The notes: generated by a model from the sequence alone, not told the origin. A stretch of DNA of 63,059 nt, filler included, from Octopus bimaculoides (GCF_001194135.2; 4 parts of 3 records of this genome joined end to end with filler, not necessarily neighbours in it); one strand, 5' to 3'; shown: positions 235 to 49,791, counted from the whole stretch's first letter. Numbers and translations: made by a program.

Positions 235-280
235 GACACCTGACGAAGGCTGGAGGGTATATCAGCCGAAACGTTGTGTT
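235..280 (+). ncRNA. Minimal type I hammerhead ribozyme, intact core
   Basis: Stem I GACAC/GUGUU, core CUGACGA plus A, stem II GGCUG/CAGCC, GAAA, loopless palindromic stem III (A)ACGU(U), cleavage triplet GUU (cut after 275). Confidence 0.8.
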
Positions 281-360
281 AACAACAAACAAGATGAGGA
301 CGAATATCCGTCAAATGTAGATAATGTAAATAATTCCTCATCTCTTAAATATAGAACTGT

Positions 361-745
361 ATCTATTTCTTTATTCAGAAATTATCCACCTTTGTTTCTG
401 GTCGACTGCATAGCTCATTTGTGTGGTCAAAGTTACCAGAAAGAAATTTTGCAAACCAATTTGATACTGTCTGCTGTATAATAACATTAGAATGAAATAA
501 CCCACTAATATTCCAAGCTGTCTGTGATGTTGTATTTTCAAGAAAGAACCCATATTTCAAAACTATATGAATTTTCAACTTTTCCATCTCTAAATAAGAA
601 TAGCAAAGAGTTAGAATAAAGAAATAGATGTGTCAGCTTTTTAACAAAAAATAAAGATTGCCAAAATATAATAATGGCGGAAAATGAGCAGCTGTCAAAG
701 TTTACTATATACCTTACTACAAATTTCATACTTGACAACCTAATA
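361..745 (-). mobile_element. mariner 5' fragment: TIR plus degenerate HTH of the transposase
   Basis: TIR TTAGGTTGTCAAG with TA near 731-745. ORF 375-587 MEKLKIHIVLKYGF...TVSNWFAKFLSGNFD...SRPETKVDN resembles a mariner N-terminus. Confidence 0.8.
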
Positions 746-767
746 TATATATTTATATATATATATA

Positions 768-2330
768 CTAGCAGAAGCACCCGGTGTTGCTTGGGAATGA
801 AATTTTTCATTATATATTGGAAGAAAAGAGCAAAATATGTTGTATAGAAATTTGTTATTCTAAATTCAATTTATTCTTCAATTGGGAAATCAATTCTGAA
901 TTCATAATACAAAACAATAATAATAATTATAATTATAATAATATTGAACAAAAATACAAAATTTGCCACTTTTATGAAAGGAGATAAATTCTACCACATA
1001 TGTTCAAGGAAATTACATAAGAGCTTCTGAGTAAACAACATTCTTTGTTTTCTGGTTTGGAGTATAGACAAACAAGTCTTGCAAACTACCTATCCTGGGG
1101 CAACCAACATAAAGGTGATCATGAGAAAAGCAAGCCAGTAGATTTCAAAGACAGACCTTGAACTTTATTAATAGACATTGCAAAGCAAAGTCACACTGGG
1201 AATTATGTTCATTTGAACTCAAATGGCATGTCTGTTGGTTTGATTGGAATTCTTGGATTGAAAGCCTCTTCCACTGAGGCACATCCATTGATGATGGTAG
1301 CTTCTTTCACATTAGGTGTCATTAGGTCTTCACAATCAACTTTGTCCCATTGAATAATTTAGGAGGATCTTAAATTTCTTAGAAGCATTATTGGAACTCC
1401 TACCTTCAGAAAAAGTTTGTGTGGAGGAGTTCCAGGTGGCTCAAGAGAAATAAAGAACTCTAATGGGTAATGGACAGCTTGATTTTCATCAAGGACTGAA
1501 ACAACTGATTTGTTCTTCTTAATGACTGTTGGAAGCCTGTATTTTAATTCATGGTTAGTTCTTGCTACTATCTCATTTTTTTGAGCAAGAATTGCTCTTT
1601 CACACAACCATTTATGTGAATTATAATTATTACGTAAGTCTGGAAATACCCTGTTCCTCAATTCAGCTGGGAAATTCACCATGGTAGCAATATGAGCCAA
1701 ACTGATATCACCATTCCCATCAAATGATATGGTACTTTCCCATTTCGTAATTGCAGGAGTCAGGTTGAAAACTGTTTTACAAATTAGTCCCCTTGTAATA
1801 AAGGTCGCACATTAGTATTGAAGGAGAATTTCAGTACTTTATTCTATAGGTGTGAAGACTTAATGAATGCTTTTATTTCATCAGATCTTGTTCATCTCAG
1901 AATGGCTGGTAATGTCTGTCTCAAGTCTCCTGATAAAACTAATGTAATTCCTCCCATAGATTTATTGTTGTCTCTGATGTCCTGTAAGGTCTTACCAAGA
2001 GCTTCCATTGCACCTCTATGTGATATGGTGCATTCATCCCAAATGATAAAATGACATTGGCACAACACTTCTGGTGAACCTGAATCTTTGCTTGTTACAA
2101 ATTCGACTGTCATTTGTGACCAGGTTTAGTGGTAATTTAAAAGCAGAATGAGCTGTTTGGGCTCCTGGGAGAATGGTGGCAGCAAAGGCAGACAATGGTA
2201 CAGCAACTGCAATTCTTTTTTGTTACCTTACCTTGGATAGAAGCAATGTTACAAATGTTTTACCTGTGCCACCAGGAGCATCAAGAAGGAAAATTCCTCA
2301 GCTATCTTCTGGCGATTGTGGAACGCCACA
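768..2330 (-). mobile_element. Helitron remnant: degenerate PIF1-like helicase domain with preserved 3' terminus
   Basis: Minus-strand motifs DAPGGTGKTF (Walker A), IIWDEC, SGDLRQTLP, LKVGVPIMLLRNL, FAMSINKVQG, broken by stops and frameshifts. Ends in a GC-rich segment then CTAG|T at 768-771. Confidence 0.92.
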
Positions 2331-3320
2331 GACATGCACACATACATATACATACAGTATCAAACATCAGATTATATATATNNNNNNNNNNNNNNNNNNN
2401 NNNNNNNNNNNNNNNNNNNNNNNNNNNNNNNNNNNNNNNNNATGTGTTGTTGAAAATTCACCTAAATTTCAAAAACTTGTAAATGTTTAAAATACATTTA
2501 TTTACATATATATCAAACTAGTTTCAACAATATTTTTTGTTTATCAATGGTAAAAGTTTAAAATTAGAAAAACATCTTGTAAAAGTTTTAATGTTGATAA
2601 ATTAAAATGTTTCAGTGTTGATAAGTTAGCATGTTCAAAAGAGAAGGTGTAAGTTTGAATGTTCATGGCAGTCAATAAAATTAAAACTGTATATCAATTT
2701 GTTTGAATGTACAAAGTTCATTCATTTTAGTGGTGGTCGACAAGTCATACTGAAAAAAACAAGTGTGAAATGAAAATAGTAAATAAATGGGAATTTGGTT
2801 TACAGTTTTTCTGATCCTCTTCTAATAGATGCTTTCACTTGTAGTGGTATGTTTTGGGATCAGATGAATTTATAGTTTTTTTCCTCGAGTGGATCTGATT
2901 TTTGATTCGTTAAAATTCTGGTGACATTTTTTTTCTGTGATCAAGCTTGTCATTCTGCTTGGTTGGTTTCCTTGTGGATACGGTCATAAGTCGTTCCAGT
3001 TGGTTGGTTCTCTTAAAGGGTCATTTCGTTGTATTCGCTGAAGTTCAGTTTTGATTGGTCTGTACTTAGGTGACATCAGCAACTGGTGTTTGTAGAATTT
3101 CATTGGACTGAACGTCAGCAACTGATGTTTGTATGGTGATTTGGAGTTGCAGTTTCGGAACCAGGGTGGAAGATTGTTACTAAAGTTTTCAGAAAAATTT
3201 TTTTTGTTGTTCCTGGTTGTTTTTTTTGAGTCTTTTTTTCTTTTCTTTTTACTGCTTTTTCTTCTTTCTAAAGGATATTCAGCTGTGGTTTATATTTTTT
3301 AATCAGTATGTTTTCCTTAT

Positions 3321-3532
3321 TTAACCCTTTAGTGTTTTAAACTGGCCATATCTAGCCCAAATATTCTACATGTTTTATATTTAAACTGCCTCTCACACCT
3401 AACCTCCATTGACATTCTAAAAATAAACATTATTGAAACCTCAAAGCTATAAGATAATGCATGATTAATTCAAAACAATTTGAGTGAAAAAGTATTACAT
3501 TTAACAGAATAATCTGAACACTAATGGGTTAA
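3321..3532. mobile_element. piggyBac-type MITE
   Basis: TTAA-CCCTTTAGTGTT ... AACACTAATGGG-TTAA: terminal inverted repeats with TTAA duplications on both sides. Confidence 0.75.
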
Positions 3533-3559
3533 ATAGAATTGGATTGAAGTGTTTCCAGT

Positions 3560-4170
3560 GCATTGATTTGGAAAGATTTGGGAAGATTTGGTATTTAGGG
3601 TTCATGTCTATGGAGCATTGGTCTATTTGCTTGCTTACAGGAATTTTCCTAGTGTTGGGGTCTCGGATTTGTTGGCTGTGCACTAAGTCTATCCCTCAAA
3701 GTTAAGCTGGTTTGACCAATGTAGTCACTACCACAACCTCCACATTTAAGAACATAGTTAAGAAGATGAAGGAGTACGTTGGACATTTATTTATTATTTG
3801 CTACAGGTGTTTTGATGAAACGTAGTTCTCCAAGAATACAGGTTTTAGATTATGCAACTGTTTGTTTGCATAATGAGATCTAGTTGTGCTTCCTTGGGCG
3901 ATATACGAGTGTTGTCACCATTAGTTTGAAATCATAGACTCCAAGGCCATCTTCTCTGTCCATCGTGGTTTGAATTTAGGAGCGGCTGATAGACCCATGC
4001 TGTGTGCCATGAGAACACATTTGTCGGACTGCTATGAATGGTACTAGATGGTACTGGCTGGCATTTAAATGGAATTGGCCTTCTATTTGGTTGTATCTCT
4101 GATCTGTTCTTTATGGTTGGCTACCCATGTTAATTTCTTAAGCTGACCTAAAGGTATGTATTCAGTGGTC
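3560..4170 (-). mobile_element. Penelope-like element fragment, GIY-YIG endonuclease region
   Basis: Minus-strand translation NYVLKCGGCGSDYIGQTSLTLRDRL..HSQQIRDPNTRKIPVS; frameshifted. Confidence 0.8.
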
Positions 4171-4242
4171 ATATACATACCCGCATACACACACAGAGAC
4201 TCATACATACACTCTCACACGCAAATGTATGTATATATGCCT

Positions 4243-4628
4243 TTGTTGTTGGCACTCCATTGCTTACGATGACGAGGGTTCCAGTTGATCCAATCAACGG
4301 AACAGCCTGCTCTTGAAATTAACGTGCAAGTGGCTGAGCACTCTACAGACACGTGTACCCTTAATGTAGTTCTCGGGGATATTCAGCGTGACACAGTACG
4401 ACAAGGCTGACCCTTTGAATTACAGGCACAACAGAAACAGGAAGTAAGAGTGAGAGAAAGTTGTGGTGGAAAAGTACAGCAGGGTTCGCCACCATCCCCA
4501 GCCGGAGCCTCGTGGAGCTTTAGATGTTTTTGCTCAATAAACACTCACAACGCCCGATCTGGGAATCAAAACCGCAATCCTATGACCACGAGTCCGCTGC
4601 CCTAACCACTGGGTCATTGCACCTCCAC
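4243..4628 (-). mobile_element. Full-length tRNA(Arg)-like-headed SINE
   Basis: Reverse complement of the copy at 47211-47601; tRNA-like head and (CAA)n tail. Confidence 0.9.
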
Positions 4629-4879
4629 CATATATGCCTATATACACACATACATGCTCTCATATACATACATAAATACATTCCTGTATATATGTTTATA
4701 TACATACCTGTATTTAGGCAACTTGATATCCATATATATATATATATATATACATGTGTACATATATAAATTTATGCATGCATGTATGTTTATATATATG
4801 AATAGATATACACACACACACACACATATATAATTTTGTACAAGGTATTAATGTCATTAAGTAACACCACATGCTCTTC

Positions 4880-6160
4880 AGAGATGGCATCTATCTCTCA
4901 AGAGGACATGAAAATTAGAGAGAGAGTTATGTCTCAACTAATTAGGGATAGAATTAAATTAGATGAGATGCAGTTTGGTTTTGTTCGAGGGAGAAGTACC
5001 ACAGATGCCATCCTCATAGTGAGATAGTTCCAAGAAAAGTATTTGACCAAAAGTAAGCCATTGTACTTAGCCTTCATTGACCTGGTGAAAGCTTTCAACT
5101 CTCTTATTTGATGATCTCTAAGGAAGCTAGGAGTAGAGGAGTGACTTCTTAGAGTGGTTCAGGCCATGTACAGTGATGCTGTCAGTAAGGTGAGAGTTGG
5201 ACTTGAATACAGTGGTGAATTTAACGTACAAGTTGGAGTACATTAGCGATCAGTTCTTAGTCAATTCTTTTTCATCGTAGTTCTCCTAGCCATAACAGAT
5301 GAATTCAAAACTGGATGCCCATGGGAACTACTATAGGGTGATGATCTTGCTCTTATTGCAGAATCTCAAGCAGAATTGGAGAAGTTCCGGGTTTGGAAGC
5401 AAAACCTGAAATCAAACAGCCTTTAAGTTAACTTAGCTAAGACTAAAGTTGTTGTTAGCGAGATAGGAGATAAGACTTTCATTCCGGTTGGCAAATGGTC
5501 CTGTTCAATATGTAGGAAAGGCGTGGGATGTAATTCCATTTGCTGCACCAAGTGTAAGCTATGGACGCATAAGAGATGCAGTGGAATTGTGGTAATGCTT
5601 TCATGTGTGGCAGGTGCGCAGGAACAATAAGTACTAAGAGTACGAGGGATTTAAACTCTCTCAAATACCCAGGAGGCTCTCTTGATGTAGTAGATAGTTT
5701 TTGCTATTTAGGTGACCAAATTAGTAACAGTGGTGGATGCTCTGAAAGTGTTGTTTCTAGAATAAGAATAGAGTGGAGAAAGTTCAGAGAACTATTACCT
5801 CTCTTGGCAGTAAAAGGACTCTCTCTCAGATAATGCTCATGTGAGAATGGCTATGTTACATGGTAGGGAGACATCAGTGTGCATGACTGCCAAAGCACAA
5901 CTGTGTTGAGAAAAAAGTTGGGCACGAGAGGGATTAAATGTGGTATGCAAGAGAGGAGAATGTGTTGGTTTGCACACGCGATGCGTGTGAGTGAAGACAG
6001 CTGTATGCAGAAGTACCTGTGGAAGAGGGAGACCCAGGAAGACATGAGATGAAGTGGTGAGGACTGGTCTTAGGATGTTGGGGCTTATGGAGGAAATGAC
6101 AGTGGCCCGAGATGTTTGGCAATATGAAGTTCTAGAAGACCCGTCAACAAAACTAAGTGC
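4880..6160 (+). mobile_element. RTE-clade LINE remnant: RT domain and C-terminus
   Basis: QFGFVRGRSTTDAI, YLAFIDLVKAF, VGVH.RSVLS, GDDLALIAES, FCYLGDQI; many stops and frameshifts. Confidence 0.9.
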
Positions 6161-6784
6161 TAGAAGAGTTGTGTCCCACCCATGTCACAACACACTTTTC
6201 ACCCACTCTACCCTAAGAAATCAAACTACAACTCCTCTTCCTTACATTTCTTCTTCATAAATTATGACTGTTTTCCAATCCCCTTTCTTGCCCTTACTAC
6301 CCTGCTAACTGTATCACTTCTCCCCACACTCACACCCAGTTTCTCTAACCAGGTTCAATGCTGATATTCTTGTTATTTATGTATATACCCTAGAACTACA
6401 CCATCTCTTTTACACTTTTGCTGTTTCCTACTCTCTCTCTCTCTCCTCGTTTTTCCGCTGACTAAGTAACCAAGTATCTCCTTTACATCAGCACACTTGT
6501 TTCTGACCTCTTTCTGTACCTCTCTCTCACTCTCTAGCTTTCCTCTCTGTCTCTCTCACTGGGTAACCATGTCCCTCCTCTATAGCAAGACACTTCTGCT
6601 TCTCTATTTCTCTGTTACACTCTAACCTTTCATCATTTGATATTGGATCACCTCCTCTAATGCCCCCTCTGTTGTGACAAGACACCTGCTTCTGTCTCTG
6701 TGTCTTTGTCACACTCTAACCTTTCATCCTCTGACACAAGTTCCCCTCCTCAAATTCTCTGCCCTTCTCTTGTGAGTTACTTGG

Positions 6785-7070
6785 TTACCCTGCCAGTGCT
6801 GATGCCACGTTAAAAGCATCCAGTCCACCCTGTAAAGTGGTTGGCATTTGGAAGGGCATCCAGCTGTAAAATTCGGGTCAAAACTAACTTTGCCTGTGCT
6901 AGTGCCACATAAAAAGCATTGAGTTCACTCTGCAGAGTGGTTGGTGTTGGCGAGGGCATCTAGTCATAAAATCCCTGCCAAAACAGACACAGTAGCCTTG
7001 GGTAGATTTTTTACCTTGCCAGCTCCTGTCATCCATCTTACTCATGGAAGATGGATGTTAAACAATGATG
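6785..7070 (+). repeat. Interspersed repeat with internally duplicated unit (probable LINE 3' tail)
   Basis: Two related units GTGGTTGG..GGGCATC.AG..TAAAA; follows the RTE remnant and a CT-rich tract. Confidence 0.4.
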
Positions 7071-7170
7071 ATGTATGTATGTTTATATGCATGCATGTAT
7101 ATTATATATATATATATATAAATAATAATAAAGGAGTTACGATGCAAAAACGTATATAATTAAATGAACA

Positions 7171-7265
7171 TATTTATCTTCTTCAATATATATTTCAGTA
7201 TAAAGAATTCATTAAGAGACTTAATAAATCAAAATTCTTTTACACGTCTTCAGGAAAAATAAATA
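7171..7265 (-). ncRNA. Type I hammerhead, intact CUGAAGA core, long stems
   Basis: Stem I UAUUUAUUUUUC/GAAGAAGAUAAAUA, CUGAAGA (7253-7247), stem II GUGUAAAAGAAUU/AAUUCUUUAUAC with a C-U mismatch at its base, GAAA, palindromic stem III AUAUAUAU, triplet AUU. Confidence 0.7.
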
Positions 7266-7399
7266 TAACACCAGAAAACCACATTCGGTTTAAAAATATA
7301 ATCCATTCATGGCGAAAAATTTCACAATTTTTTACAATTGTGAAATTTTTTGCCATGAACGGATTGTATTTTTAAACCAAATGTGGTTTTCTGATGTTA

Positions 7400-7494
7400 T
7401 ATTTATTTTTCTTGAAGATGTGTAAAAGAATTTTGATTTATTAAGTCTCTTAATGAATTCTTTATACTGAAATATATATTGAAGAAGATAAATA
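7400..7494 (+). ncRNA. Type I hammerhead, mirror copy with C3U core change
   Basis: Same fold as 7171-7265, but the core reads UUGAAGA (7412-7418). Confidence 0.6.
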
Positions 7495-8142
7495 TGTTCA
7501 TTTAATTATATACGTTTTTGTGTCATAACTCCTTTATTATTATAACCAAAAGGATCGATTCTTGAAGAGTCTACATACCTTCACAGTCGTTTTTTTCTGC
7601 TATTTTGGTGATGATTTTTTTGAGTTAGCTTACCAATTATTTTTGTTGGTAGTTAATTTTTAATATATTGATATACATATATATATAAACTGGATGTTTT
7701 GAAATAGAAACATAACCATGTTTCAGTTTTGTGTATGCTGACATTTATCAGTGCTTTCTTCCATTGTTTTCAACCAGTACTAAAATTATTTGGATGTCTG
7801 ACAACAGTAAATGTGTTTTGATCAAAGTATACAGTGTTATAGATCTGTTTCAGCTGATCTACCAATTGATTTCATACTGGGTATGAGATAACCATACTGT
7901 TATCTATGTCCTCTTTAGAAACAGATGCCATCTCTGAAGAGCATGTGATGTTACTTAATGGCGTTAATACCTTGTGCAAAATTGAAATGGATCTGTAACA
8001 CTGCATATTATAATATACCCACTCTGCTGACAAATATGTGTCCATATTTTTTCTGATTTATTGTTTCTTAGACTATACATATACCATAAAATGGGTTTGT
8101 GTGTATATATACATACACACACACATATTTAAAGATATATAT

Positions 8143-9703
8143 TATTGGGTCACCCCATAAATAATGTAATTTTTTTTATACTTCTTTTATTTTTCAAAAT
8201 TAAGATAAACAATTTGTTTTTTAATCTAAAATATACTCTCCTTCATTTTCTACAATGCTCTTCCATCTATCTGGTAGATTTGCAAGACCTCTCTTCCAAA
8301 ATTCACTTGTACATGACAAAAAATAATCTCCCAGTACTGTTCTGACCTCATCTACAGAATTCATATTTTTTTCCATCCAAATGATTTTGAAGACTGCAGA
8401 ATAAATGATGATCAGATGGGGCAATGTACATTGAATATGGTGGGTAAGGCATTGTTTCCCATTCAAACTGCTTCAGCCTTTGGAATCTCATCCTTGCTGT
8501 ATGTAGCTGAGCAATTATCCTGATGGAAGAACACTTTATGTCTTGAAACCAAAGATGGTTGCTTTTCTTCTAGTGCTGACTTAAGCCACTCAAGCTGCTC
8601 GCAGTAGATCTCCTTTGTTATCGTGGACTAAACCTTTCATATCCCACCAAACAGATAACAACACCTTATGTGGGTGAAGAACTTCTTTAGCCTGGGGTGT
8701 CAGTGTTTCTCCTTTTGTCGCTTGACATTTTTATTGAGAACCCATTTCTTGTCACCGGTCACTATTCGGTCCCAAAAAGATTCATTTGTGAGACATGACA
8801 GTAAAGATGAGCACACAATCACTTTTTGCATGCGATTAAACTCGGAAAGTGTGTGAGGAACCTATTGACCCAATTTGCTGACTTTTCCGATGGCACGCAG
8901 GTGTTGATGAATGGTTGAATGACCAAATTGAAGCTTTTCTGCTAGTCCCTCAACAGTTACGGTGGGATTTTGTCCCACCAGGGTTTGCAGGACACCTTTG
9001 TTTTGAGCTCTACAGATCTTCTAGGACTAGGCTGTAGCTTCCAGCTCAGAATTTCTGGAACCACTGTTGACACTGGCTTATGCTTATTGTCTGATCCCTG
9101 TATACTGCATTAATATTCCTTGCACTTTCCATTGTGTTGTTGTCTTGATTGAACTCATAAAGCAAAATATGCCGAATATGCTCCTGTGTCACTTCCATTA
9201 TAGCTTTGAAAAAATAACTGTTAAAATTGAACTGCACTCTTCAAAACTTGCACTAAGAATAAGTTTAAGGTAACATTACTACATGCTTTTATAGCAAGTT
9301 GATGCAGTTAAAAAAAAACATTATTGTGGCTGTGTGGTAAGTAGCTTGCTAACCAACCACATGGCTGCAGGTTCAGTCCCACTGTGTAGCACCTTGGGCA
9401 AGTGTTTTCTACTATAGCCTCAGGCCAACCAAAGCCTTGTGAGTGGATTTGGTAGATGGAAACTGAAAGAAGCCTGTGGTATATATATATGTATGTATAT
9501 GTTTGTGTGTGTCCCAACATCGCTTGATGCTGGTGTGTTTACGTCCCCGTAACTTAGCGGTTCAGCATAAGAGACCAATAGAATAAGTACTAGGTTTACA
9601 AAGAATAAGTCCTGAGGTCGATTTGCTCGACTAAAGATGGTGCTCCAGCATGGCCGCAGTCAAAATTACTGAAATGAATAAAAGAATGTGGGATGATCCA
9701 ATA
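8143..9703 (-). mobile_element. Full-length but degenerate mariner element, one TIR split by a SINE
   Basis: MEVTQEHIRHILLYEFNQ..., VTGDKKWVL, FHQDN, ...LPDRWKSIVENEGEYILD*. TIR TATTGGGTCACCCCATA at 8143; the other TIR is split into about 9310-9329 and 9687-9703. Confidence 0.88.
9330..9686 (+). mobile_element. SINE with CORE-like CCTTGGGCAAGT block and internal (TA/TG)n
   Basis: Head GCTGTGTGGTAAG, tail CCAGCATGGCCGCAGTCAAA..AAAAGAA. Other copies at 26975, 55655 and 59870. Confidence 0.85.
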
Positions 9704-10511
9704 GATATGTCATCGTCATCTTTATATGTCAATTTTCTATGCTTGCTTGGGTAGGACAGTCCAACAGAATTCATTAGACAGGACTATATCTTGCTCTAAT
9801 GTCTTGACATAGTTTCTGATGCTTTTCTACCACTTTACAGAGTTATTGGGTGCATTTTTACCTCCAGGTAGAGGGTGCTGTGTCAGCAGCAAAACTGAAG
9901 AGCTTGAATAAATTACAAGCCTGGTTACACTTGCTAAGTGTAAGAGGAGCACCATGATTGATAGAACAAATTTATTGTGAGCAGATGGTGATGTCAAGGA
10001 TAAGTGTGAAGTTGAGAAGGGGACAAAGTAATGTCATCTGTCACATCAGTATTTGAATGGAGTTTGTCAGATTTCAAGACAGTTCTTATTGGAGTTATAC
10101 AGGTTTATTTTTGAGAGTGGGTGACAGGGGAGAGATTTGAGGACAATGTTAGGGAAGTAGGTAATAGGATGGAAAGGGAAAAGTAGTGTCAAGGAACTAG
10201 CGAGAGTAAGTGGTAATGGCAGTGAGATGACAGAGGAGATGCAGTGCTTTTCTACATTTTAAATAGGTGGATAAATTGATCCATGGAAGCGAGATGAGAT
10301 GATGTGGTCATGTAGGTAACATATCTAAAAAGATGTAGTGACAGGAGAAATCAGTGAGAGTGGGTACAGGTTACAAGAGTGCAATCTATAACATATACAT
10401 GTGTGTGTGTCCATATATATAATCAAACTCCAAAGGACTGGTGTTGGTCTGCAGCAGCTGTTTAGTAAGATCAATAAAAAGAGAACAGTGAACTAGCTGT
10501 GGGAAATAGAA

Positions 10512-10544
10512 AATCCAATGTTTTGAACAAAGTCCTTCAGGAAA
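10512..10544 (-). ncRNA. Degenerate hammerhead-like motif just upstream of and antisense to the PLE RT remnant
   Basis: CUGAA-GGAC-UUU-GUUC-AAAA-CAUU-GG: core two nt short and G12A. Confidence 0.3.
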
Positions 10545-10569
10545 AAGCTGACAGGAGAGAAATTAACGA

Positions 10570-11570
10570 GAGATATTATTGTCAAACTGGCTGATGAAGA
10601 GGGAGCCATTGTAGTTTGACAACCTAACCTATACAGACAAAAAACACTCTGCAACTCTTGATTCTACAGCAAGATACCAAAAGATCTCATGAACAACTAT
10701 CAGAAACAAGTGTCCACCACTGTTCATAAATTTACCTCTTCCAGCTCACTTTCACTAACTTCATTGTGACCTTGTCCCAAAGCCCCACTATTTTGTCCTC
10801 AGAATTCACAAACCAGACAATTCTGGTCACCCTATCATCTCCACCTGTAACTACCCTACACAACTTTTATCATAGTACCATGACAAAATATTATCACCTC
10901 TCTTTGCCATCTTAAAGACACCAGCCATGCCCTAAACCTCTTCAACTCATTCTCTTTTGAATCTGGTGAATCCAAACTCCCTTTTTGCTATAGACAAAAT
11001 TGCTGTACAGTCCTTCTCTACAATGGTAGCCTCTCAACCCTAAGACACTTCCTAGACCATCACCCTCTACCCAGCATTACTGCACTCCTCCTCAGCTTAG
11101 TCAAGTTCATCTTTCATTGCTTTTCTTTCACTGGGGAATTTTACAATCAAATCAGCTGTGGCAACAATTAGTCCCAATTATGCCAATCTCATTGTAGAAT
11201 CTGTCCAATTCACTGGGAAGATTTGCCCTTCAGTGTAGCCTACAAAGAGATTGAAGCCACAATGAACCCTCAAAGTAGCCTATACAGTCAATGTAACCAC
11301 CCTCACCAAACACAAGCTCAATAGTTTTATCTATTTTGTTCGCTCCTTTCACTCTGCCTTGGAATTTACCCACACATACTTCTGTAGTGTTTTCCATCAT
11401 CATAAGTTTCAACATCCACCTTTGTCTGCTACAAGCTTACTGATTCCAATCTCCATCTCTTCTTTTCACTCAAAACATACAAAATTTACAGCACCATTCT
11501 CACAATTCCTCTGTTTTCATGTCTATAAATCGTATTTCACCTGTTTATCCTCCCAGTGAAAGATAAAACT
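10570..11570 (+). mobile_element. Penelope-like reverse transcriptase remnant
   Basis: IIVKLAD..GAIVV, RIHKPDNSGHPIISTCNYPT, LKDTSHAL, LRHFLD, PNYANLIV, LNSFIYFVRSFHSALEFT. The YID(D)CIG segment lies on the opposite strand. Confidence 0.85.
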
Positions 11571-21820: not shown

Positions 21821-22231
21821 ACATTTCAGGACGATTCTGATTGTGGGTATGATTTCTATACTAAAAGACACCATTGATATTACAGCTGGTCCTTTTGTTG
21901 TTGCTGCAGTAGACTATACTATTCAACCGCATTTCGCTAAGAAGTGAGTGACATATATATTTTTGTGAAAGCTTTACAATAATTACTAAAATTGTTTTTG
22001 TTTCGTGTTAAGCTGTTTGTTATTCTACTTCCATTTTATTTAGATTATGTTAACTTTTTAGTCCTCTAGACATGGAATGTCGTACTTAGAAACATTTATG
22101 TGGTAACGAAAGAAGAAAAACAACAATATTAGTCAATATTAACAATAGATGATAATTATGTTTTCAGGGAAACAAAGGAACAATGATAGTCAAGAGACAA
22201 TATTATATTGTTTTAGAAGAGACGATAGTAA

Positions 22232-22271
22232 CTGTCACATGTTTCGAAATTTTCTAACCTCATCAGTGAAG
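22232..22271 (-). ncRNA. Hammerhead-like motif with intact core and damaged cleavage site
   Basis: CUUCA-CUGAUGA-G...C-GAAA-CAUG-U-GACAG: palindromic stem III ACAUGU, but G17 and a poor stem I. Confidence 0.45.
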
Positions 22272-23887
22272 TATGTACTTCAATATATGTGCCAATGCTG
22301 TGATGGCGTAATCACCAAATAACTAGACAATACTTTACGTTTATTGTTCGACAAAAATAGAACTGCTCAGAGATGTTTTTTTATGACGATGTAGAGGTAG
22401 TTCTCGTAGTTGGCATCTTCTTGTCAGTTTCGAATTTAAGTCTGGAAAACTTAGGAAAAAATTGTGAAAATCATGAAGGTCAAAGCTTCACATTTTATTT
22501 TTAACTTTTGAATTAGCATACTTAACTGCTGTAAATTACACCGTTAAAAACAGCCTTAAAATAGTGAGTGCTCAAACAGGGTGACTTGGGATTTTATTAA
22601 ACTATACGAAAATAAATTTATCCGCAGGTGCCTCCGCCAACAACGTAGTGGTTGTATAGGGCCTAATTCTGAATATTATTTTGCATTTCATGTTCATTAG
22701 TGAAGGTATGAGATTTCTTGACGTCTCATTAGCAATGATAGAGCTTATTCTATTGAAAATAAATTTAAAAAATAAAAATAATTCAGAAAAAAAGAAAGAA
22801 AGAAAATGAAACTGCAATTAGAAAATAGAAAGCTAATCAAAAATTACAGGAAAGAAAATTAAATAGTATTTTTGTTAATTAGCCATGCTGACATGAACAT
22901 TTAAACATTCGATTCAGAAAATATGGATTATTTTTACACACATAAAGAAGAAAAAAAAACAATCAAAACAAAATCAAATCATAAATAAGTTCAGCAATTT
23001 TTTAACGACGTAATTTTATGTTATTCATTTATCTTGAAATCGAATATGGAAGAAATTATTTTAAATACTCGTTACTGCAGTCACTTTTCTGAGGCCCCCC
23101 AGTTTTTGAAATAAGGAGAATATGAGACTGTATCATGCTCATAGCTTTCTTGGGCTCATTAGTGACGTTAATGAGGCAGAGTGGTTCTTAATGTAGGAAT
23201 GTCTTTTTAGAAAACTTATTGAGCTACATGCCAGGTTCTTATATTCGGTTTTTTAATACCTTCAAGGAACGAGAAGCAAATGTTCTCTCCCACATTTGTC
23301 TTTTCCCACATGGTAAACTGATCGAGGCATGTCATCAAGGTAAACTATTGTCACCCCGTAGAAATGTACTCCTAGTCATCTATACAATACTACACATTTA
23401 CAAGATATATTAAATTATTTCAGTATTAAGTTTCAATCTAAGCTACAGAATGAAACGTAACCCTGGGCATGAACTTTAGGCACTGATTTTTTTGGCTGTT
23501 TCTCTGGGATCCTCTTGATTCCACCATCGACACTGCTGGTATTGTTGTTTATGCCTAGTTCACATCTGATCGAACAAGAGTATATTTGAAGGTGCTACAA
23601 ACACCGCCACCCATTCTATTAATGGTAACGTATTATTCCCTTTTTTTTAGATGGCTGTCATTTCTATTAGATTGGCTAAGTGATTAGAAATGTTCTTTCG
23701 TACAACACCACCATCCATGTTCTTGTTACTTTCAGATCAGCTATAAAAGCGCAGTTCCATGATACAACGCTTATAATCCTCGTCCATCTCGTCCATCTCT
23801 AAGATAATGAGTAGTTAATGCTAACACTATTATCTATTATGCGTCTCCTGTTACAGTACAGCAATGGGTAACTTTTGACTATAATTA

Positions 23888-37133: not shown

Positions 37134-37610
37134 GATAGTTATCGCCAAGCTTACATGGCAGTCCAGAAAAATAGGACGAATGCTGCCGTTGATTAGCTCC
37201 AAGAGGCCATCGCCTCTAGCTAGGTATGTGACACACGAACCTGTGTCCATTATAACCTTCGAACAGGGGAGGTCAGCCCTTGCTGGTCTGGCATCTACAG
37301 GCTAGTTTCAGGGCATTTGCCCTTTATCAATGTAGAGCAGCCGAACCGAGCAGGTGTCGCTACTGACCGTCTGTTCGAAGGATTATTTACCTAAATTCAG
37401 TGGAATACATCCACAGGTTTTCAAAAATAGAAATATTGATATTTCTAAGTCTCTCTAAAAGAGACTACGGCAGCGGTACTGGATATTAATAGTTATTGCC
37501 AAGCTAACATGGCAGTTCAAGAAATAGGACGAATGCTGCCGTTGATTAGCTCCAAGAGGTTATTGCTAGTTCTAGCTAGCTATGTGACACACGAACCTGT
37601 GCCCATTATA
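37134..37610 (-). mobile_element. Short element with about 115-nt direct repeats (37134-37254, 37489-37608) and a hammerhead on a long interrupted helix; pLTR-like
   Basis: The repeats align directly; inverted repeat CCTTCGAACAG (37256) / CTGTTCGAAGG (37381) encloses the HHR. Confidence 0.6.
37294..37336 (-). ncRNA. Type I hammerhead with U3-A8 core and C16.1
   Basis: UCUACA-UUGAUAA-AGGGCA-AA-UGCCCU-GAAA-CUAG-C-C-UGUAGA: 6-bp stem I, 6-bp stem II, stem III ACUAG(C). Confidence 0.65.
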
Positions 37611-37829: not shown

Positions 37830-38590
37830 ACAACGCTAGAAAGATCAAGAGAGGGGGGGGGGTAAGTCGATTTCAACCGGTACTTATTTTATCGACTCCG
37901 CAAAGATGAAAAGCAAAATCGATCTCGGTGGAATTTGAACTCAAAATGTAAAGACAGACGAAATGTCACTAGGTATTTATCCCAATCCACTAACGATTCT
38001 GCCAGCTCGCCAACCTTCGTCTTCACCTGTATATTAGTCTATTATACGTGCTGATGTGCTGGGATTAAACAGCGTCCAGACGACAGTTTCCTTCTAGCAT
38101 TGACATTTATCAATTGTTTATGAATGAATGCGAAAGGGATGCCGATCTCTAGAGACACATGAATGTCCTTGTGATCATTAGATTAAATCAGTCGTCGCAT
38201 TCGTTTAAGGAGCGATGGGAACTACAGATTGGGAACGAAAAAAATCTCATCAATTTGCATTGACTTCATCGATTTTCCACTGCATTATCGAACACTACAG
38301 ATCCTAATATTTTTTTCTGCTCATATCATGGCTTCATTATTTTGAATCTAAGTTAGACGACTATACTCTATTTTTCCTTGGCAAGCTATGATATATCGGT
38401 TTCAAACTTAGGCACAAGATCAACAAGCTCGGGGGAGACCCCAGTATTCAGCTGGTACTTATTTAATCGACCCCCTAAAGGACGGAAGGAAAAGTCGACC
38501 TCGGCGGAATTTGAACTCAGAACGTAAAGACGAACGAAATGCTGCTAAGCATTTTACCCGGCGCGGTAACTATTCTGCCAGTTCACCACC
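37830..38590 (-). mobile_element. Two Meta-like SINE copies (37830-38015, 38395-38590)
   Basis: GTACTTATTT..ATCGAC, GGAATTTGAACTCA, TTCTGCCAG.TC motifs. Confidence 0.8.
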
Positions 38591-38608
38591 ATGTTTCTCA
38601 AGAACAAT

Positions 38609-38644
38609 GCAACTGATGAATCGTATGATAAAACCGTCTGTTTT
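38609..38644 (+). ncRNA. Weak hammerhead-like motif
   Basis: CUGAUGA-AUC-GUAU-GAU-AAAA-CCG-UC: G12A and a poor stem I. Confidence 0.3.
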
Positions 38645-39326
38645 ATGAAAGACGACATTCAAGTGACTTGCAGCAATGTCAGGTACAATAGCTGCAATTT
38701 CAGATGTGGATACATCGTTATAGAATGAATTCGAATAAATTTTTACCTCAGAAATAACATTTATATTCCAATTTTTTTTTTTTTTTTGTCTGATATCAAA
38801 AACATATATATATTCTTTAATTCAGTATTTTGTTTTGTTAAAACTGCTACTGGGTGACGATTGTATTTCAGACAATTTGAAACTCCATTCTTCTGATATT
38901 GATTCATTAGGTTTTGTTGTGTGCACTGCTTCTAGGGGGCATTAAATTGTAATTATATATTTAAAAACTAATTTTTATTCACCACACATAAAGATACTTA
39001 TTTTCACGAAAACAATTCTACTGTTTATGCTTTCAGACGACAGAAGTTGTGACCATACCGAAAAAAATCACACTCATTTCCCACAGTGCATTTTACGTCA
39101 ATTATAATTAAATTCCAGAGTTGTCTCCTCTACTTCTCTTGATAATAATTAATTAAGATAACGAATGTTCTTCATCACGACGGACGTCAATTTAATTCAT
39201 TTAAATATTGGCTTATTATATATGACAATGTCCAATTTGCTAGTAATTATGTAGAGATCTGGATATATTTTCACCAAACATTTTCCCTCTATATATCTTT
39301 CTATATACATAGATACACACACAAAT

Positions 39327-39398
<72 letters not shown>

Positions 39399-39770: not shown

Positions 39771-39775
39771 ATATG

Positions 39776-42335: not shown

Positions 42336-42436
42336 AAGTGCATTTACATGTATGTAAAGTGTGAGCGGACATATAAGTACACGTTTATATACTCAGCATG
42401 TGGTAGAAATAGCTGTCAGATCTCCCTTAAATTATA

Positions 42437-43330
42437 TCCCCGGTGTCTCAGAAAAGGACATTTTCTAATGTAGTCCATAGTTCTTTGCACATCCCCGGTG
42501 TCTCAGAAAAGGACATTTTCTAATGTAGTCCATAGTTCTTTGCACATCCCCGGTGTCTCAGAAAAGGACATTTTCTAATGTNNNNNNNNNNNNNNNNNNN
42601 NNNNNNNNNNNNNNNNNNNNNNNNNNNNNNNNNNNNNNNNNNNNNNNNNNNNNNNNNNNNNNNNNNNNNNNNNNNNNNNNNNNNNNNNNNNNNNNNNNNN
42701 NNNNNNNNNNNNNNNNNNNNNNNNNNNNNNNNNNNNNNNNNNNNNNNNNNNNNNNNNNNNNNNNNNNNNNNNNNNNNNNNNNNNNNNNNNNNNNNNNNNN
42801 NNNNNNNNNNNNNNNNNNNNNNNNNNNNNNNNNNNNNNNNNNNNNNNNNNNNNNNNNNNNNNNNNNNNNNNNNNNNNNNNNNNNNNNNNNNNNNNNNNNN
42901 NNNNNNNNNNNNNNNNNNNNNNNNNNNNNNNNNNNNNNNNNNNNNNNNNNNNNNNNNNNNNNNNNNNNNNNNNNNNNNNNNNNNNNNNNNNNNNNNNNNN
43001 NNNNNNNNNNNNNNNNNNNNNNNNNNNNNNNNNNNNNNNNNNNNNNNNNNNNNNNNNNNNNNNNNNNNNNNNNNNNNNNNNNNNNNNNNNNNNNNNNNNN
43101 NNNNNNNNNNNNNNNNNNNNNNNNNNNNNNNNNNNNNNNNNNNNNNNNNNNNNNNNNNNATCCCCGGTGTCTCAGAAAAGGACATTTTCTAATGTAGTCC
43201 ATAGTTCTTTGCACATCCCCGGTGTCTCAGAAAAGGACATATTTTTTTAATGTAGTCCATAGTTCTTTGCACATCCCCGGTGTCTCAGAAAAGGACATAT
43301 TTTTTTAATGTAATCCATAGTTCTTTGCAC
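42437..43330. repeat. 55-bp minisatellite with 58-bp variants at the right end, spanning a gap
   Basis: Unit TCCCCGGTGTCTCAGAAAAGGACATTTTCTAATGTAGTCCATAGTTCTTTGCACA starts at 42437, 42492, 42547, 43161, 43216 and 43274. Confidence 0.95.
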
Positions 43331-43759
43331 AAAGAAAAAACTGGATATTCACGGCTGGAATATCTTTGATCATAAGTGACCTGGTGCTAAAACACAACAC
43401 AACACCATCCATCACTGTCAATCAGATCGACAAGAGTTAGGCGTTTATGCTAGTTCTCCGTCGCTGCTAGAAACTCGCCGCCCTGCTATTAATATTTAAC
43501 AACATTTTATCAGAGTTTGTTCTCGGCTTCTTGAGTCAGTGATGGTAATTACTTCTCGATCCGTGATGTTTGACTAACTCATAAATATCGGGAGATAATT
43601 GTTATTAATTGTTTCACCCCGGGTCAGCTTTGATCAAACAGGCCTAATAATGGTGAAAGATATTTCAACTTGAACCATCCTGTAACTTTTCTATTTCTTT
43701 ATTATTTTTTTTTTTCAATGAAGTATTGTAGTATTGTAGAGGATACCAGGAATATTGAC

Positions 43760-44739: not shown

Positions 44740-44940
44740 AGCGCTGAGTTGCTGAAGCAAAAATATCATTATGGCAAATATTCTGCTCAATACTACAGAT
44801 ATGCTTGCCAGTTGTTTGACCTTCACCACTTGAGCATGTCCCTTAATGACTGACAATATGTGCACCTCTGATCAAGAGCAGGAGAAGTGGGAAAAGCATC
44901 ATAGTTTTGCATTGAGAGGGATTCTTTGAGATTTGAATAA
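44740..44940. repeat. Unclassified interspersed repeat; longer relative at 62035-62530
   Basis: Shared AATATTCTGCTCAA.AC.ACAGAT.TGCTTG.CAGTT and CTCTGATCA.GAGCAG blocks. Confidence 0.65.
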
Positions 44941-45689: not shown

Positions 45690-46340
45690 AAACCCTAAAG
45701 AATCCCTCTCAACACATGACTGTCATGCTTCCCCCCACTACAAAGGCGAAACATGCGGCCCCCCTTAAAATAAGGGTAGAGGAACATTGTAAAGCTGTGA
45801 CACGAGGAGATATTGAAAAATCGGGTATAGCCGATCATGTATGGAAAAACGGAGACCCCCACCCCAACGCCGTGGGATGAAGTTAAAATAATAGACTGAG
45901 AACACCACTGGAAAACACGAAAATTAAAAGAGGCAGCACATATGCTAGGACACAATAACTTCCTTAGCAGACCTAGTGCAGATATGAATGTAATTTGGGA
46001 ACCGGTATTAAGAAATGATAAAATATCAGGTTTATAAGCCCTAAAATTGACTCCGTAATTACCTACGGCATATTGCGTAGTGAATAAGAGCGCGGCTACC
46101 AACCCTCGGATTTTGTGTTCAATCCCTGTCAGGGACTTGGGTTGTAATATCAACAAAAAAAATAACATCCACAAAACACGAATACTTGAGGAATGTGAAC
46201 AGAGTACTGCATTAGTCAAATAATGGGCTGGGTTCGAAATTCCACCCGAACACCTGATGAAGGCTGGAGAGTACATCAGCCGAAACGTTGTGGTAACAAC
46301 AAACAAGGTGAGGATACTTGTCCGCCTATTGTAAATAATG
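45690..46340 (+). mobile_element. Penelope-like element 3' part: GIY-YIG domain, tRNA-like module (46066-46137), hammerhead
   Basis: YKGETCGPLKIRVEEHCKAVTRGDIEKSGIADHVWK...WDEVKIID.EHHWKTRKLKEAAHM...VLRNDKISGL* (stop 46035-46037), with frameshifts. Confidence 0.88.
46249..46294 (+). ncRNA. Minimal type I hammerhead, intact core
   Basis: AACAC-CUGAUGA-A-GGCUG-(10 nt)-CAGCC-GAAA-CG-UU-GUGGU; homologous to 235-280. Confidence 0.75.
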
Positions 46341-47069: not shown

Positions 47070-47129
47070 AGGCCGACGATCGTTACGTGGTTTTATATCG
47101 GTGGGAACTGTAAGAGACTCATATGACCT
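47070..47129 (-). ncRNA. Degenerate hammerhead-like motif with stem III ACGAUCGU
   Basis: AGGUC-AUAUGA-GU...AC-GUAA-CGAUCG-UC-GGCCU: stems I and III are good, core damaged. Confidence 0.35.
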
Positions 47130-47210
47130 CTGGCTCGTCGAAACTAACGGAATCCTTAGCGGCATACATATACATACGTATATAGAATTATATATGTGTA
47201 TGGATGTTCA

Positions 47211-47601
47211 GTGGAGGCGCAATGGCCCAGTGGTTAGGGCAGCGGACTCGTGGTCATAGGATCGCGGTTTCGATTCCCAGACCGGACGTTGTGAGTGTTT
47301 ATTGAGCGAAAACACCTAAAGCTCCACGAGGCTCCGGCAGGGGATGGTGGCGAACCCTGCTGTACTCTTCCACCACAACTTTCTCTCACTCTTTCTTCCT
47401 GTTTCTGTTGTACCTGTATTTCAAAGGGTCAGCCTTGTCACACTGTGTCACGCTGAATATCCCCGAGAACTACGTTAATGGCACACATATCTGTGGAGTG
47501 CTCAGCCACTTGCACGTTAATTTCATGAGCAGGCTGTTCCGTTGATCGGATCAACTGGAACCCTCGACGTCGTAAGCGACGGAGTGCCAACAACAACAAC
47601 A
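47211..47601 (+). mobile_element. Intact tRNA(Arg)-like-headed SINE with 11-bp target-site duplication
   Basis: A box TGGCCCAGTGG, B box GTTTCGATTCC, (CAA)n tail; ATGGATGTTCA at 47200-47210 and 47602-47612. Confidence 0.93.
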
Positions 47602-47619
47602 ATGGATGTTCATCAACCC

Positions 47620-48060
47620 CAAAGTGGTGTACTAGAGAATCGTCAGCAAAATGTTTAGCGGCATTTCGTCCGTCTTTACGTTCTGAGTTCAAATTCCCCT
47701 AAGGTCGACTTTGCCTTTCATCCTTCCAGGATCGATGAAATAAGTACCAGTTGAACACTGCGGCCGATGTGATAGACTGTTCCCCTCCCCCAAAAATTTT
47801 CACGCCTTGTGCCTATAGTAGAAAGGATTATTATCATCACCACGCGGAGCCGACCTGGCAGAATCGTTAGCAGACCGGGGAAAATGCTTAGCGGCATTTC
47901 ATCCTTCTTCACGTTTTGAGTTCAACTTCCTCTATGGTCTCGACTTTGCTTTTTATCCTTTCGGTGTCGCTAAAATAAGTACCAGTTGAGTACTGGGGTC
48001 GATGTAATCGACTTGATCCCTGTCCCCGAACTTGCTAGCCCAAAATTTGAAGCCATTATT
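47620..48060 (+). mobile_element. Tandem Meta-like SINE units (2-3)
   Basis: Family motifs repeated, with ATT-rich spacers. Confidence 0.8.
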
Positions 48061-48064
48061 GTCA

Positions 48065-48580
48065 TCAACTCGTCAACATTATTGTCTCTAGCTCTAGGAT
48101 TCATGAGGCCAATTACTCCATGTTGTGTAAGCCTCCACTCAATAGGACACCAGTACGTAGCAAGGCTACTCATTTACAGCTGAGTAAAGTGGAGCAACAT
48201 GAAATAAAAGGTTTTGCTCAAGAACAAAACACCCGGTCCATGACTCGATACCACGGTCTAGCAATCGCGAGTGAAACACCCTAACCACTAGGCCACGCGC
48301 CTCCACTTCTAAACAGTATACGTCCCTTAATATCAATTACAGTGGAGGCACATGGATTAGCAGCGGTTAAGGTGTTGGGCTCATGATCGTAAGATTGTGG
48401 TTTCGATTCCAGGACCGGGCGATGTGTTGTGTTTTTGAACAAAACGCTTCCATTTCATTTTGCTCCATTCCACTCAGCAGGTGAGAATGAGTAATCCTTC
48501 GACGGGCCGGCGTCTCGTCCCGGGAAGTATATATACGTTAGAGAAACCGGGAAACCGGCCCTATGCAACTTACGGAGAAA
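48065..48580. mobile_element. Two tRNA-headed SINEs back to back (48065-48307 minus; 48341-48580 plus)
   Basis: Both start GTGGAGGC.C.TGG and share the TTTCA..TTGCTCCA..CACTCAGC block. Confidence 0.75.
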
Positions 48581-49611
48581 TGTGGACTAACCAATACCAT
48601 TTACAAGGCTGCTGTTGATCCGAAAATCTTGTGGCAGACATTCACCCGAGGTTCCATGCAACGAGATTGAACCCAATACCTTATGATTGCGAGGCTAGTT
48701 TCTTTATCATTTCATTCTGCCTGCATCCACAGTTTTGATATTTCATAATTACTCTGTTAACTGTTTGGCTCATTCCATTCTATTAACTGTATTCCTTTCT
48801 GTTGGCGTTATGAGGGAGTTGGAATATTGCCAGTTTGTTGACGTTTGTGCTTGCCTCAAATTGCCAATAGTTGCAGATATCTAAAGACAGCAACGTTTTA
48901 AAATTCTTTTTTTTTTTTTTTATGGAGAAACTGGATACTTGGTTCGTAGCTAATGAAATCTACATCACTATATCCTTGAACCAAAATAATTAGTGAAAAG
49001 CGTTGCATTTCACAATGGTGGTGTAAGACTTAATACTGTAATTAGCAGGGGTATAATATGACTCCCAAGGGTTTATATAGGCATTAAAGTCCGAAACAAA
49101 CTCATTGTCCTAGATATATTCAACAAAGGTCATAGTAAGGAACGGGAACATACACACGCATACATACACACATACTCACTCACTCATATATCTATATATA
49201 TATATAAATATTTGTATATATATATATATATNNNNNNNNNNNNNNNNNNNNNNNNNNNNNNNNNNNNNNNNNNNNNNNNNNNNNNNNNNNNNNNNNNNNN
49301 NNNNNNNNNNNNNNNNNNNNNNNNNNNNNNNNNNNNNNNNNNNNNNNNNNNNNNNNNNNNNNNNNNNNNNNNNNNNNNNNNNNNNNNNNNNNNNNNNNNN
49401 NNNNNNNNNNNNNNNNNNNNNNNNNNNNNNNNNNNNNNNNNNNNNNNNNNNNNNNNNNNNNNNNNNNNNNNNNNNNNNNNNNNNNNNNNNNNNNNNNNNN
49501 NNNNNNNNNNNNNNNNNNNNNNNNNNNNNNNNNNNNNNNNNNNNNNNNNNNNNNNNNNNNNNNNNNNNNNNNNNNNNNNNNNNNNNNNNNNNNNNNNNNN
49601 NNNNNNNAGTT

Positions 49612-49698
<87 letters not shown>

Positions 49699-49731
49699 TA
49701 TTTAGAAGGTTGTTTGTTATGACCGGTGAGA

Positions 49732-49791
49732 AAGTGACGATCGTTTTCCCGCCTAGACAGCGTTTAGCTGTCTAGGCGACTCGTCAGAGTT
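49732..49791 (-). ncRNA. Type I hammerhead-like motif with 12-bp stem II and GUC site
   Basis: AACU-CUGACGA-GU-CGCCUAGACAGC-UAAAC-GCUGUCUAGGCG-GG-AAAA-CGAUCG-UC-ACUU; stem III ACGAUCGU. The junction around positions 11.1/12 is imperfect. Confidence 0.6.

What the first reader, a model, noticed from the sequence alone, without database searches (positions are those of the whole stretch)
235..49791. Dense set of hammerheads from unrelated repeats, each with its own palindromic stem III: a possible dimerisation code
Seen: about 13 HHR-like motifs (235, 7171, 7400, 10512, 22232, 25414, 30202, 33868, 37294, 38609, 46249, 47070, 49732) plus two lacking stem II, roughly one per 4-5 kb. Their flanks represent many families. 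Stem III variants are ACGU, AUAUAUAU, ACAUGU, ACUAG(Y), ACGAUCGU and ACAGCUGU. Established: loopless palindromic stem III HHRs of PLEs cleave as dimers (Lunse et al. 2017). Inference: distinct palindromes would make dimerisation family-specific, so co-resident elements would not cross-activate. If this density were typical of a roughly 2.7-Gb octopus genome, it would imply on the order of 10^5 motifs (rough extrapolation from one window).
Basis: partly seen in the sequence, partly recalled or inferred. Interest (0 to 1): 0.75.

Follow-up and report, generated by a model that had tools for sequence, protein, structure and literature searches.

The report
Penelope dimer hammerheads, no exclusive code
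This DNA holds ten or eleven hammerhead (self-cutting RNA) motifs, likely left by several families of Penelope-type jumping genes and predicted to cut only as pairs; each family keeps one self-complementary arm, but unrelated families reuse the same arms, so they are unlikely to be a selected family code, and the design is already published.

Summary
Partly confirmed. Nine of the 13 listed sites belong to multi-copy families whose majority sequence is a type I hammerhead with a palindromic helix III; one is probable; three are not supported (10512, 38609, 47070). The ACAGCUGU pair is one full motif with a long helix II plus its inverted fragment. ACGAUCGU at 49732 is decay of ACCAAUGGU. In 1.22 Mb of genome sample a descriptor gave 23 hits against 0-2 in shuffles: about 38,000 intact motifs, about 90,000 with decayed copies. 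Family A ends a Penelope/Poseidon-type RT plus GIY-YIG element. Helix III is constant within families, but 25 clusters use only 18 palindromes, no more distinct than chance, and three abundant clusters share ACGU. In a double hammerhead helix I also pairs in trans; it separates families better (31 of 600 cross pairs fit, the chance rate) than helix III (172 of 600). Published tables show the same reuse. So: known Penelope dimer hammerheads, with family specificity as a by-product of divergence. The scan noted this before on other DNA. Side finds: a 5,030-copy family with a fixed A6U core, and a tRNA-like cassette in family A's 3' UTR where 5' ends cluster.

The parts
1..64 (+). End of the family A endonuclease ORF and start of its 3' UTR
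   Evidence: 64 nt continue the upstream sequence of family A copy L003; L007 and L010 translate there as the C-terminus after a CVYSIPC motif
65..140 (+). tRNA-like segment (A and B box look-alikes) inside the family A 3' UTR, followed by (TAA)n
   Evidence: Present in 19 of 20 copies picked by the endonuclease region; not called by ARAGORN; box identity is my reading from recalled consensus
235..280 (+). Family A minimal type I hammerhead, intact; helix I 5 bp, helix III ACGU, predicted cut after 275
   Evidence: at least 40 copies 100% identical over 131 nt; 5,473 exact pattern matches, control 0
7177..7259 (-). Family C hammerhead, long helix II, helix III AUAUAUAU, core intact
   Evidence: 24 of 27 copies keep the palindrome
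7406..7488 (+). Family C hammerhead, inverted partner, C3U change
22231..22272 (-). Probable old hammerhead (family D), helix III ACAUGU, H17 is G and helix I lost
   Evidence: One other copy, which shares both core boxes and the palindrome
25414..25450 (+). Family B hammerhead-like motif, core CUGUUGA (A6U), helix III ACGU
   Evidence: 5,030 exact matches, control 0
30202..30236 (-). Family B2 motif, decayed (A9C, ACGU to AUGU)
   Evidence: Five homologues in the random sample, one passing the descriptor
33866..33903 (-). Family B motif, A6U core, ACGU decayed to AUGU, 3' end next to (TA)n
34471..34558 (-). Family G hammerhead with long helix II, helix III ACAGCUGU
   Evidence: 21 of 32 copies keep the palindrome
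34600..34650 (+). Family G 5'-truncated inverted partner (no CUGANGA box)
37293..37337 (-). Family E hammerhead, U3-A8 core, helix I 6 bp, ACUAGU (here ACUAGC)
   Evidence: 28 of 32 copies ACUAGU
45873..46010 (+). C-terminal remnant of a Penelope-type ORF upstream of the 46249 motif
   Evidence: tblastn of P0002, 74% over 46 aa, E 1e-26
46249..46294 (+). Family A-related hammerhead (83% to 235), ACGU
49731..49792 (-). Family F hammerhead, decayed; family helix III is ACCAAUGGU
49808..49835 (+). Family F truncated inverted partner

Best explanation
These motifs are type I hammerheads with a self-complementary helix III, likely the 3' ends of several Penelope-like retroelement (PLE) families, and they are predicted to cut only as double hammerheads when two same-strand copies lie in one tandem transcript. 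Shown: the fold, the family structure, RT and endonuclease remnants upstream of family A, mostly single or inverted insertions. Inferred: in the dimer one copy's CUGANGA/helix II/GAAA core acts on the other copy's cleavage site, so both helix I arms and the palindrome pair between copies. Selection would keep helix III palindromic within an active lineage because it must pair with itself; lineages then drift to different palindromes and helix I arms, with length following clade (4 nt in Penelope/Poseidon, 8-11 nt in Hydra-type). Family specificity would follow as a by-product of that divergence, mostly through helix I, not as a selected code. Nearly all genomic copies are 5'-truncated relics that decay neutrally and have no partner in cis.
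For: Descriptor 23 hits against 0-2 in 6 shuffles; palindromic helix III 19 real against 0-1, non-palindromic 11 against 2-4, several of the 11 near-palindromes. Hairpin helix III is unfavourable for 19 of the 21 representatives long enough to form one, and 4 ACGU/AUAU-type cannot or barely can. Family A: RVT_1 match E 3e-5, below cutoff, homologues with PF00078 and PF26215 up to 70% identity, CVYSIPC motif; PLE ORF remnants also lie upstream of motifs in L165, L035 and window 46249. Of 150 loci, 95 single, 47 inverted, 5 with a same-strand copy, 3 none. First 100 of 5,473 family A matches: 65 ACGU, 21 simple CpG decays, no other palindrome (counted by hand). Reuse: ACGU x3, ACAGCUGU x3, ACACGUGU, ACGUACGU, AUAU x2 each; 8 of those 9 sharing pairs are no more alike in flanks than other pairs. 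P(null distinct >= 18) 0.97. Helix I fits 3 bp or more in 31 of 600 cross pairs and in 4 of 18 same-palindrome pairs; helix III in 172 of 600. Published: 29 of 56 representative motifs ACGU; 5 of 14 Hydra magnipapillata families share ACUUUAAGU.
Against: No cleavage was observed: two RNA runs cover families A and B but show no pile-up of ends at the predicted site (fragmented cDNA, 6% read, weak test). Nearest-neighbour energy does not favour the family A dimer (-22.1 against 2 x -11.9 kcal/mol, or 2 x -15.1 for the best monomer fold). No ORF was tied to families B, B2, D, E, F or G within about 1.5 kb, and family C's PLE remnant rests on motifs read by eye (Pfam and homologue search blank). 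17 of 25 clusters rest on one descriptor hit. The 18 palindromes are real diversity, and long ones supply much of the dimer energy.
Confidence: 0.78

Rival explanations
1. Helix III palindromes are a selected orthogonal code that stops co-resident elements from activating each other.
For: 18 distinct palindromes among 25 clusters, constant within families; for 8-10 nt palindromes helix III gives 11 to 21 kcal/mol in the model, as much as both helix I arms; no paper on such a code in searches.
Against: Distinct count is at or below chance; the three ACGU clusters make up 35 of 62 sampled sites; unrelated clusters share 8-nt palindromes; the same palindromes recur across phyla and among families of one genome; helix I mismatch already blocks 14 of 18 same-palindrome pairs at the rate chance gives.
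Confidence: 0.07
2. The fold is kept mainly as an RNA pairing or RT-recognition module (helix I plus palindrome joins two templates of one family); cutting is slow or dispensable.
For: Family B spread to at least 5,030 exact copies with U at core position 6, no other letter reaching 5% of reads there, while keeping ACGU and a helix I that covaries with B2 (C-G against G-C); a natural A6C variant had low activity (PMC3088659); minimal PLE motifs cleave poorly even as dimers (PMC4209133); family A copies extend 55-85 nt past the predicted cut; no ends at the cut site in RNA.
Against: Most families keep a canonical core or the known compensatory U3-A8 core, which points to selection on catalysis; family B may be a passenger element whose motif is vestigial; its mobilising partner was not found.
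Confidence: 0.12
3. The motifs are chance matches in AT-rich repeats.
For: True for weak calls: 3 of 13 sites fail, and low-score hits occur in shuffles at 14.4 against 23.
Against: 23 against 0-2 in shuffles; family majority sequences keep both boxes and three helices; pattern controls 0.
Confidence: 0.03

Closest known systems
Minimal and small-palindrome type I hammerheads of metazoan PLE pseudo-LTRs (Cervera and De la Pena 2014, PMC4209133; main text parts 1-2 of 4 and supplement parts 1-2 of 3 read)
   Same: Type I, extra nucleotide after A9, palindromic 15.2-16.2 and loop 3, several consensus families per genome, mostly single or opposite-strand pairs, U3-A8 variant, ACGU the commonest helix III (29 of 56 rows).
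   Different: About 38,000 intact motifs estimated here against 2,000-9,000 reported per genome (different descriptors); more long helix II and 8-11 nt palindromes; an A6U core is not among the 56 rows.
Hammerheads of Hydra-clade PLEs (Craig et al. 2021, PMC8557442; passages and Files S1-S2 read)
   Same: 8-10 nt palindromic helix III, often with an unpaired centre, (TA)n insertion. Hydra-1_Obim has ACCAAUGGU like family F; ACUCGGAGU occurs in a coral and a hydra family and in a cluster here. Family C's ORF remnant resembles the Hydra alignment by eye.
   Different: Family F's helices I and II differ from Hydra-1_Obim; helix II domains of C and G (50-57 nt) are longer than in File S2; clade not tested by a tree.
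Repeat-type dimeric hammerheads with palindromic stem and loop III (Perreault et al. 2011, PMC3088659, passages and Fig. S8 legend; Lunse et al., seen only as cited in PMC6765202 and PMC7761336)
   Same: Self-complementary helix III and loop read as dimer interface; natural core variants U3-A8 and at position 6.
   Different: Position 6 variant there is A6C in a phage; here A6U is fixed in a high-copy animal repeat.
Schistosoma SINE-like elements with promoter plus hammerhead (review PMC6765202, passages)
   Same: tRNA-like segment followed by a hammerhead, as in short family A copies.
   Different: Here the segment sits inside the 3' UTR of an autonomous PLE, and the motif is minimal rather than canonical.

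Membership tests
PLE type I minimal/palindromic hammerheads | CUGANGA and GAAA boxes, UH site, type I order | tested here: met
   Families A, B2, C, F, G canonical, E with U3-A8; family B deviates (A6U)
PLE type I minimal/palindromic hammerheads | Helices I and II formed, extra nucleotide after A9 common | tested here: met
   C and G have an irregular 10.1-11.1 junction
PLE type I minimal/palindromic hammerheads | Helix III absent or short and palindromic | tested here: met
   19 palindromic against 0-1 in shuffles with no palindrome required
PLE type I minimal/palindromic hammerheads | Sense strand, downstream of an RT plus GIY-YIG ORF | tested here: met
   Family A only by tool; two further sampled motifs
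PLE type I minimal/palindromic hammerheads | Same ORF link for families B, B2, C, D, E, F, G | tested here: inconclusive
   C by eye only (blanks in 52, 54, 85); none found for the rest within about 1.5 kb
PLE type I minimal/palindromic hammerheads | 5'-truncated, inverted and tandem insertions | tested here: met
   48 of 150 loci with an inverted partner, 5 with a same-strand copy
PLE type I minimal/palindromic hammerheads | Cleavage as dimer, not as monomer | not testable with these tools
   RNA reads show no end pile-up, a weak test
Orthogonal helix III code (proposed) | Palindrome constant within a family | tested here: met
Orthogonal helix III code (proposed) | Palindrome unique to a family, or shared less than chance | tested here: not met
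   12 of 25 clusters share; P(null >= observed distinct) 0.97 and 0.99995
Orthogonal helix III code (proposed) | Heterodimers fail because of helix III | not testable with these tools
   Pair counting points to helix I as the stronger filter
Rfam hammerhead families | Gathering score | tested here: not met
   0 matches; none among the 150 of 160 E<=10 rows shown
Non-LTR retrozymes | Tandem 150-300 nt repeats with canonical hammerheads | tested here: not met
   No such array in the window; 5 of 150 loci have a same-strand copy

The most novel reading that the evidence does not exclude
The PLE hammerhead works as a two-part RNA address (helix I arms plus palindrome) that couples two templates of one family for reverse transcription, with catalysis optional. 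Family B would be the natural proof: thousands of copies spread with a fixed A6U core yet a kept palindrome and a covarying helix I. Family A would add an autonomous PLE whose internal tRNA-like promoter spawns SINE-like, hammerhead-bearing short copies (16 of 31 measurable 5' ends fall at the start of that segment).
Probability: 0.14. Interest if true: 0.65.

Novelty: new member of a known kind. Interest (0 to 1): 0.24.

Why it matters
The role of PLE hammerheads in vivo is stated as unknown in the reviews read. This genome offers at least 25 motif clusters, a young family with identical copies, and natural pairs that share helix III but not helix I (A and B) or nearly share both (B and B2), so homo- against heterodimer cleavage and the need for catalysis can be tested with natural sequences. 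The census (about 38,000 intact, about 90,000 in all, none found by Rfam in this window) shows how much annotation misses. The code idea itself would have mattered as self-recognition among retroelements, but the data do not favour it.

Tried and rejected
Rfam: no hammerhead hit, only microsatellite-driven miRNA matches. ARAGORN: no tRNA. Sites 10512, 38609, 47070 rejected as hammerheads; the homologue search skips common words, so 'single copy' is a lower bound. First strict descriptor missed long or bulged helix II (16 hits, 3-6 in shuffles) and was replaced. ORF hunts upstream of B, B2, E, F, G found no PLE ORF. Pfam blank on five fragments and on five of seven; protein search with the family C fragment blank. 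No RNA holder listed on record in the run index; two raw RNA runs laid gave no end pile-up. Lunse et al. and Arkhipova et al. 2017 could not be read, so either may already discuss palindrome diversity, heterodimers or A6 variants; bioRxiv supplements were not seen. Searches (A6U; heterodimer, family-specific; tRNA-derived, SINE; orthogonal) found no paper on these points, listings only. Look-ups of earlier notes by sequence were blank. The sample is 140 evenly placed 10-kb stretches of contigs C1-C23; a larger one was not obtained.
Full report
Setting. Rfam found no hammerhead, so I wrote type I descriptors and checked each site against its family in the genome.

Observation. A scored scan gave 6 window hits at score 8 or more against 0.33 in 12 dinucleotide shuffles, while low scores were near chance. 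Genome searches seeded with nine window stretches and a blast against a random sample sorted the 13 sites. Nine belong to families whose majority sequence is a hammerhead: A (235, 46249), B (25414, 33868), B2 (30202), C (7171, 7400), E (37294), F (49732). 22232 is probable on two copies. 10512 has no GAAA box in the majority of ten copies, 38609 is the antisense of a Helitron-like remnant, and 47070 is a lone broken match. Family G at 34471-34558 is a whole motif with a long helix II, not one lacking it, and 34600-34650 is its truncated inverted partner. Window copies with core and helix III unchanged from their family are 235, 46249, 7177, 25414 and 34471; the others carry decay. The listed ACGAUCGU is an accident of decay at 49732; the family reads ACCAAUGGU.

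Density. In 140 evenly placed stretches (1,218,275 called bases) the final descriptor gave 23 hits against 0, 0, 2, 2, 2, 1 in shuffles, or about 38,000 genome-wide (24,000-58,000). Homology to the 138 hits found 53 full-span and 62 partial-or-full sites, about 89,000 and 104,000, a lower bound since only 25 clusters served as queries. Exact patterns count 5,473 for A and 5,030 for B, controls 0.

What carries them. Family A lies 3' of a reverse transcriptase (RVT_1 E 3e-5; homologues with PF00078 and PF26215) and a CVYSIPC...YKGET endonuclease motif, which I read from recall as Penelope/Poseidon type; the window itself has such a remnant at 45873-46010. At least 40 copies are identical over 131 nt, so it is young. 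Family C has ORF remains in one locus that resemble the Hydra-clade alignment of PMC8557442 by eye; tools did not confirm it. No ORF was tied to B, B2, D, E, F, G. Across 150 loci of five families, 95 were single, 47 inverted pairs, 5 had a same-strand copy and 3 showed no motif, the arrangement described for PLEs.

Palindromes. With only two base pairs required, 19 sampled motifs were perfect palindromes (shuffles 0-1) and 11 were not (shuffles 2-4), several of these near-palindromes. Within families picked by homology, 134 of 187 copies had the family sequence; the rest were nearly all point changes or small deletions, with no compensatory switch except a changed unpaired centre in one F copy. 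In the first 100 family A matches I counted 65 ACGU, 21 simple CpG decays and no other palindrome. So constancy holds. Uniqueness does not: 25 clusters use 18 palindromes, 12 clusters share, and random draws of the same lengths give 22.3 (uniform) or 20.0 (C15.2 bias) distinct ones. Eight of nine sharing pairs are no more alike in flanks than other pairs; B and B2 are relatives. Seventeen clusters rest on one hit and about one of those is expected by chance; shared ancestry too old to see could also explain reuse, but reuse by descent is equally against selection for orthogonality. Published tables agree: I count ACGU in 29 of 56 representative motifs, with repeats inside single genomes (PMC4209133 Fig. 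S3), and 5 of 14 Hydra magnipapillata families share ACUUUAAGU, several also sharing helix I; ACCAAUGGU and ACUCGGAGU seen here recur in those tables (PMC8557442 File S2). Palindromic loop III as a dimer interface was already noted in 2011 (PMC3088659 Fig. S8 legend).

Mechanism. In a double hammerhead, A15.1 of one copy pairs with U16.1 of the other, so that copy's 3' helix I arm must pair with the first copy's 5' arm (topology, my inference; modelled). Specificity is helix I plus helix III. Among 600 ordered cross pairs, helix I gives three or more pairs in 31 (5%, the chance rate), helix III in 172, both in 16; among 18 same-palindrome pairs only 4 fit in helix I. Mean model energies are similar, -12.2 for the two helix I arms and -11.6 for helix III, but only -2.5 to -5.8 for 4-nt palindromes. 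The family A dimer (-22.1) is no more stable than two open monomers (-23.8), so pairing likely needs a tandem transcript or protein help, in line with the low activity reported in vitro. Two RNA runs laid 5,063 and 3,998 reads on family A and 2,813 and 2,798 on family B, mostly diverged copies, with no place where many molecules begin or end; this neither shows cleavage nor excludes it.

Side finds. Family B has U at core position 6 in thousands of copies; a natural A6C variant was slow and one search listed no paper on A6U hammerheads. Family A holds a tRNA-like segment in its 3' UTR at whose start 16 of 31 measurable 5' ends cluster. These support the bolder reading that the fold is a pairing address with optional catalysis, which I put at 0.14.

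Papers seen. PMC4209133: main text parts 1-2 of 4, supplement parts 1-2 of 3. PMC8557442: passages, supplement part 2 and searched rows. PMC3088659, PMC6765202, PMC7761336, PMC6962438: passages. Lunse et al. and Arkhipova et al. 2017: only as cited by others. Earlier notes of this scan reached the same reading on other DNA and pointed me to the Hydra File S2; they are not independent support.

Verdict. Real, abundant, known in kind. Family-constant palindromes are confirmed; an exclusive helix III code is not. Interest 0.24.

Noticed in passing
window 65-140; L001-L030, L286-L305, random sample: Family A carries a tRNA-like segment plus (TAA)n between the ORF stop and the hammerhead (19 of 20 copies). 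Of 31 copies not bounded by gaps, 16 have their 5' end within -7 to +12 of its start, 4 further inside and 11 extend upstream: internal Pol III initiation giving SINE-like copies, or RT stalling at a short hairpin there.
   Followed up: partly
window 25414-25450, 33866-33903; 5,030 sites in G000: Family B has a fixed A6U core; its relative B2 has A6 and a compensatory change in helix I. Mobilising partner not found.
   Followed up: partly
window 37230-37400 (-): Family E motif is enclosed by an 11-nt inverted repeat that would close a long stem around it; 1,489 first-look candidates.
   Followed up: no
window 38573-38758 (-); L275: Helitron-like coding remnant; the CTGATGA on the other strand is incidental.
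   Followed up: yes
window 10470-10570 (-): Old repeat (144 candidates) that keeps a U-rich run and CUGAAGA like family C but no GAAA box in its majority; possibly a long-dead hammerhead.
   Followed up: partly
L041, L045, L135, L136 (random sample): Motifs whose helix III is palindromic only with central G-U wobbles or a short mismatch; a strict palindrome filter misses them.
   Followed up: no
window 47235-47350 (+): A second, different tRNA-like SINE head.
   Followed up: no
window 42436-43331: 55-58 nt tandem repeat spanning an assembly gap.
   Followed up: no
window 272-274 in RNA reads: A 3-nt deletion across helix III in about 10% of RNA reads but about 0.1% of contig depth in run X15, likely one or a few highly expressed host transcripts holding a decayed copy.
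   Followed up: no
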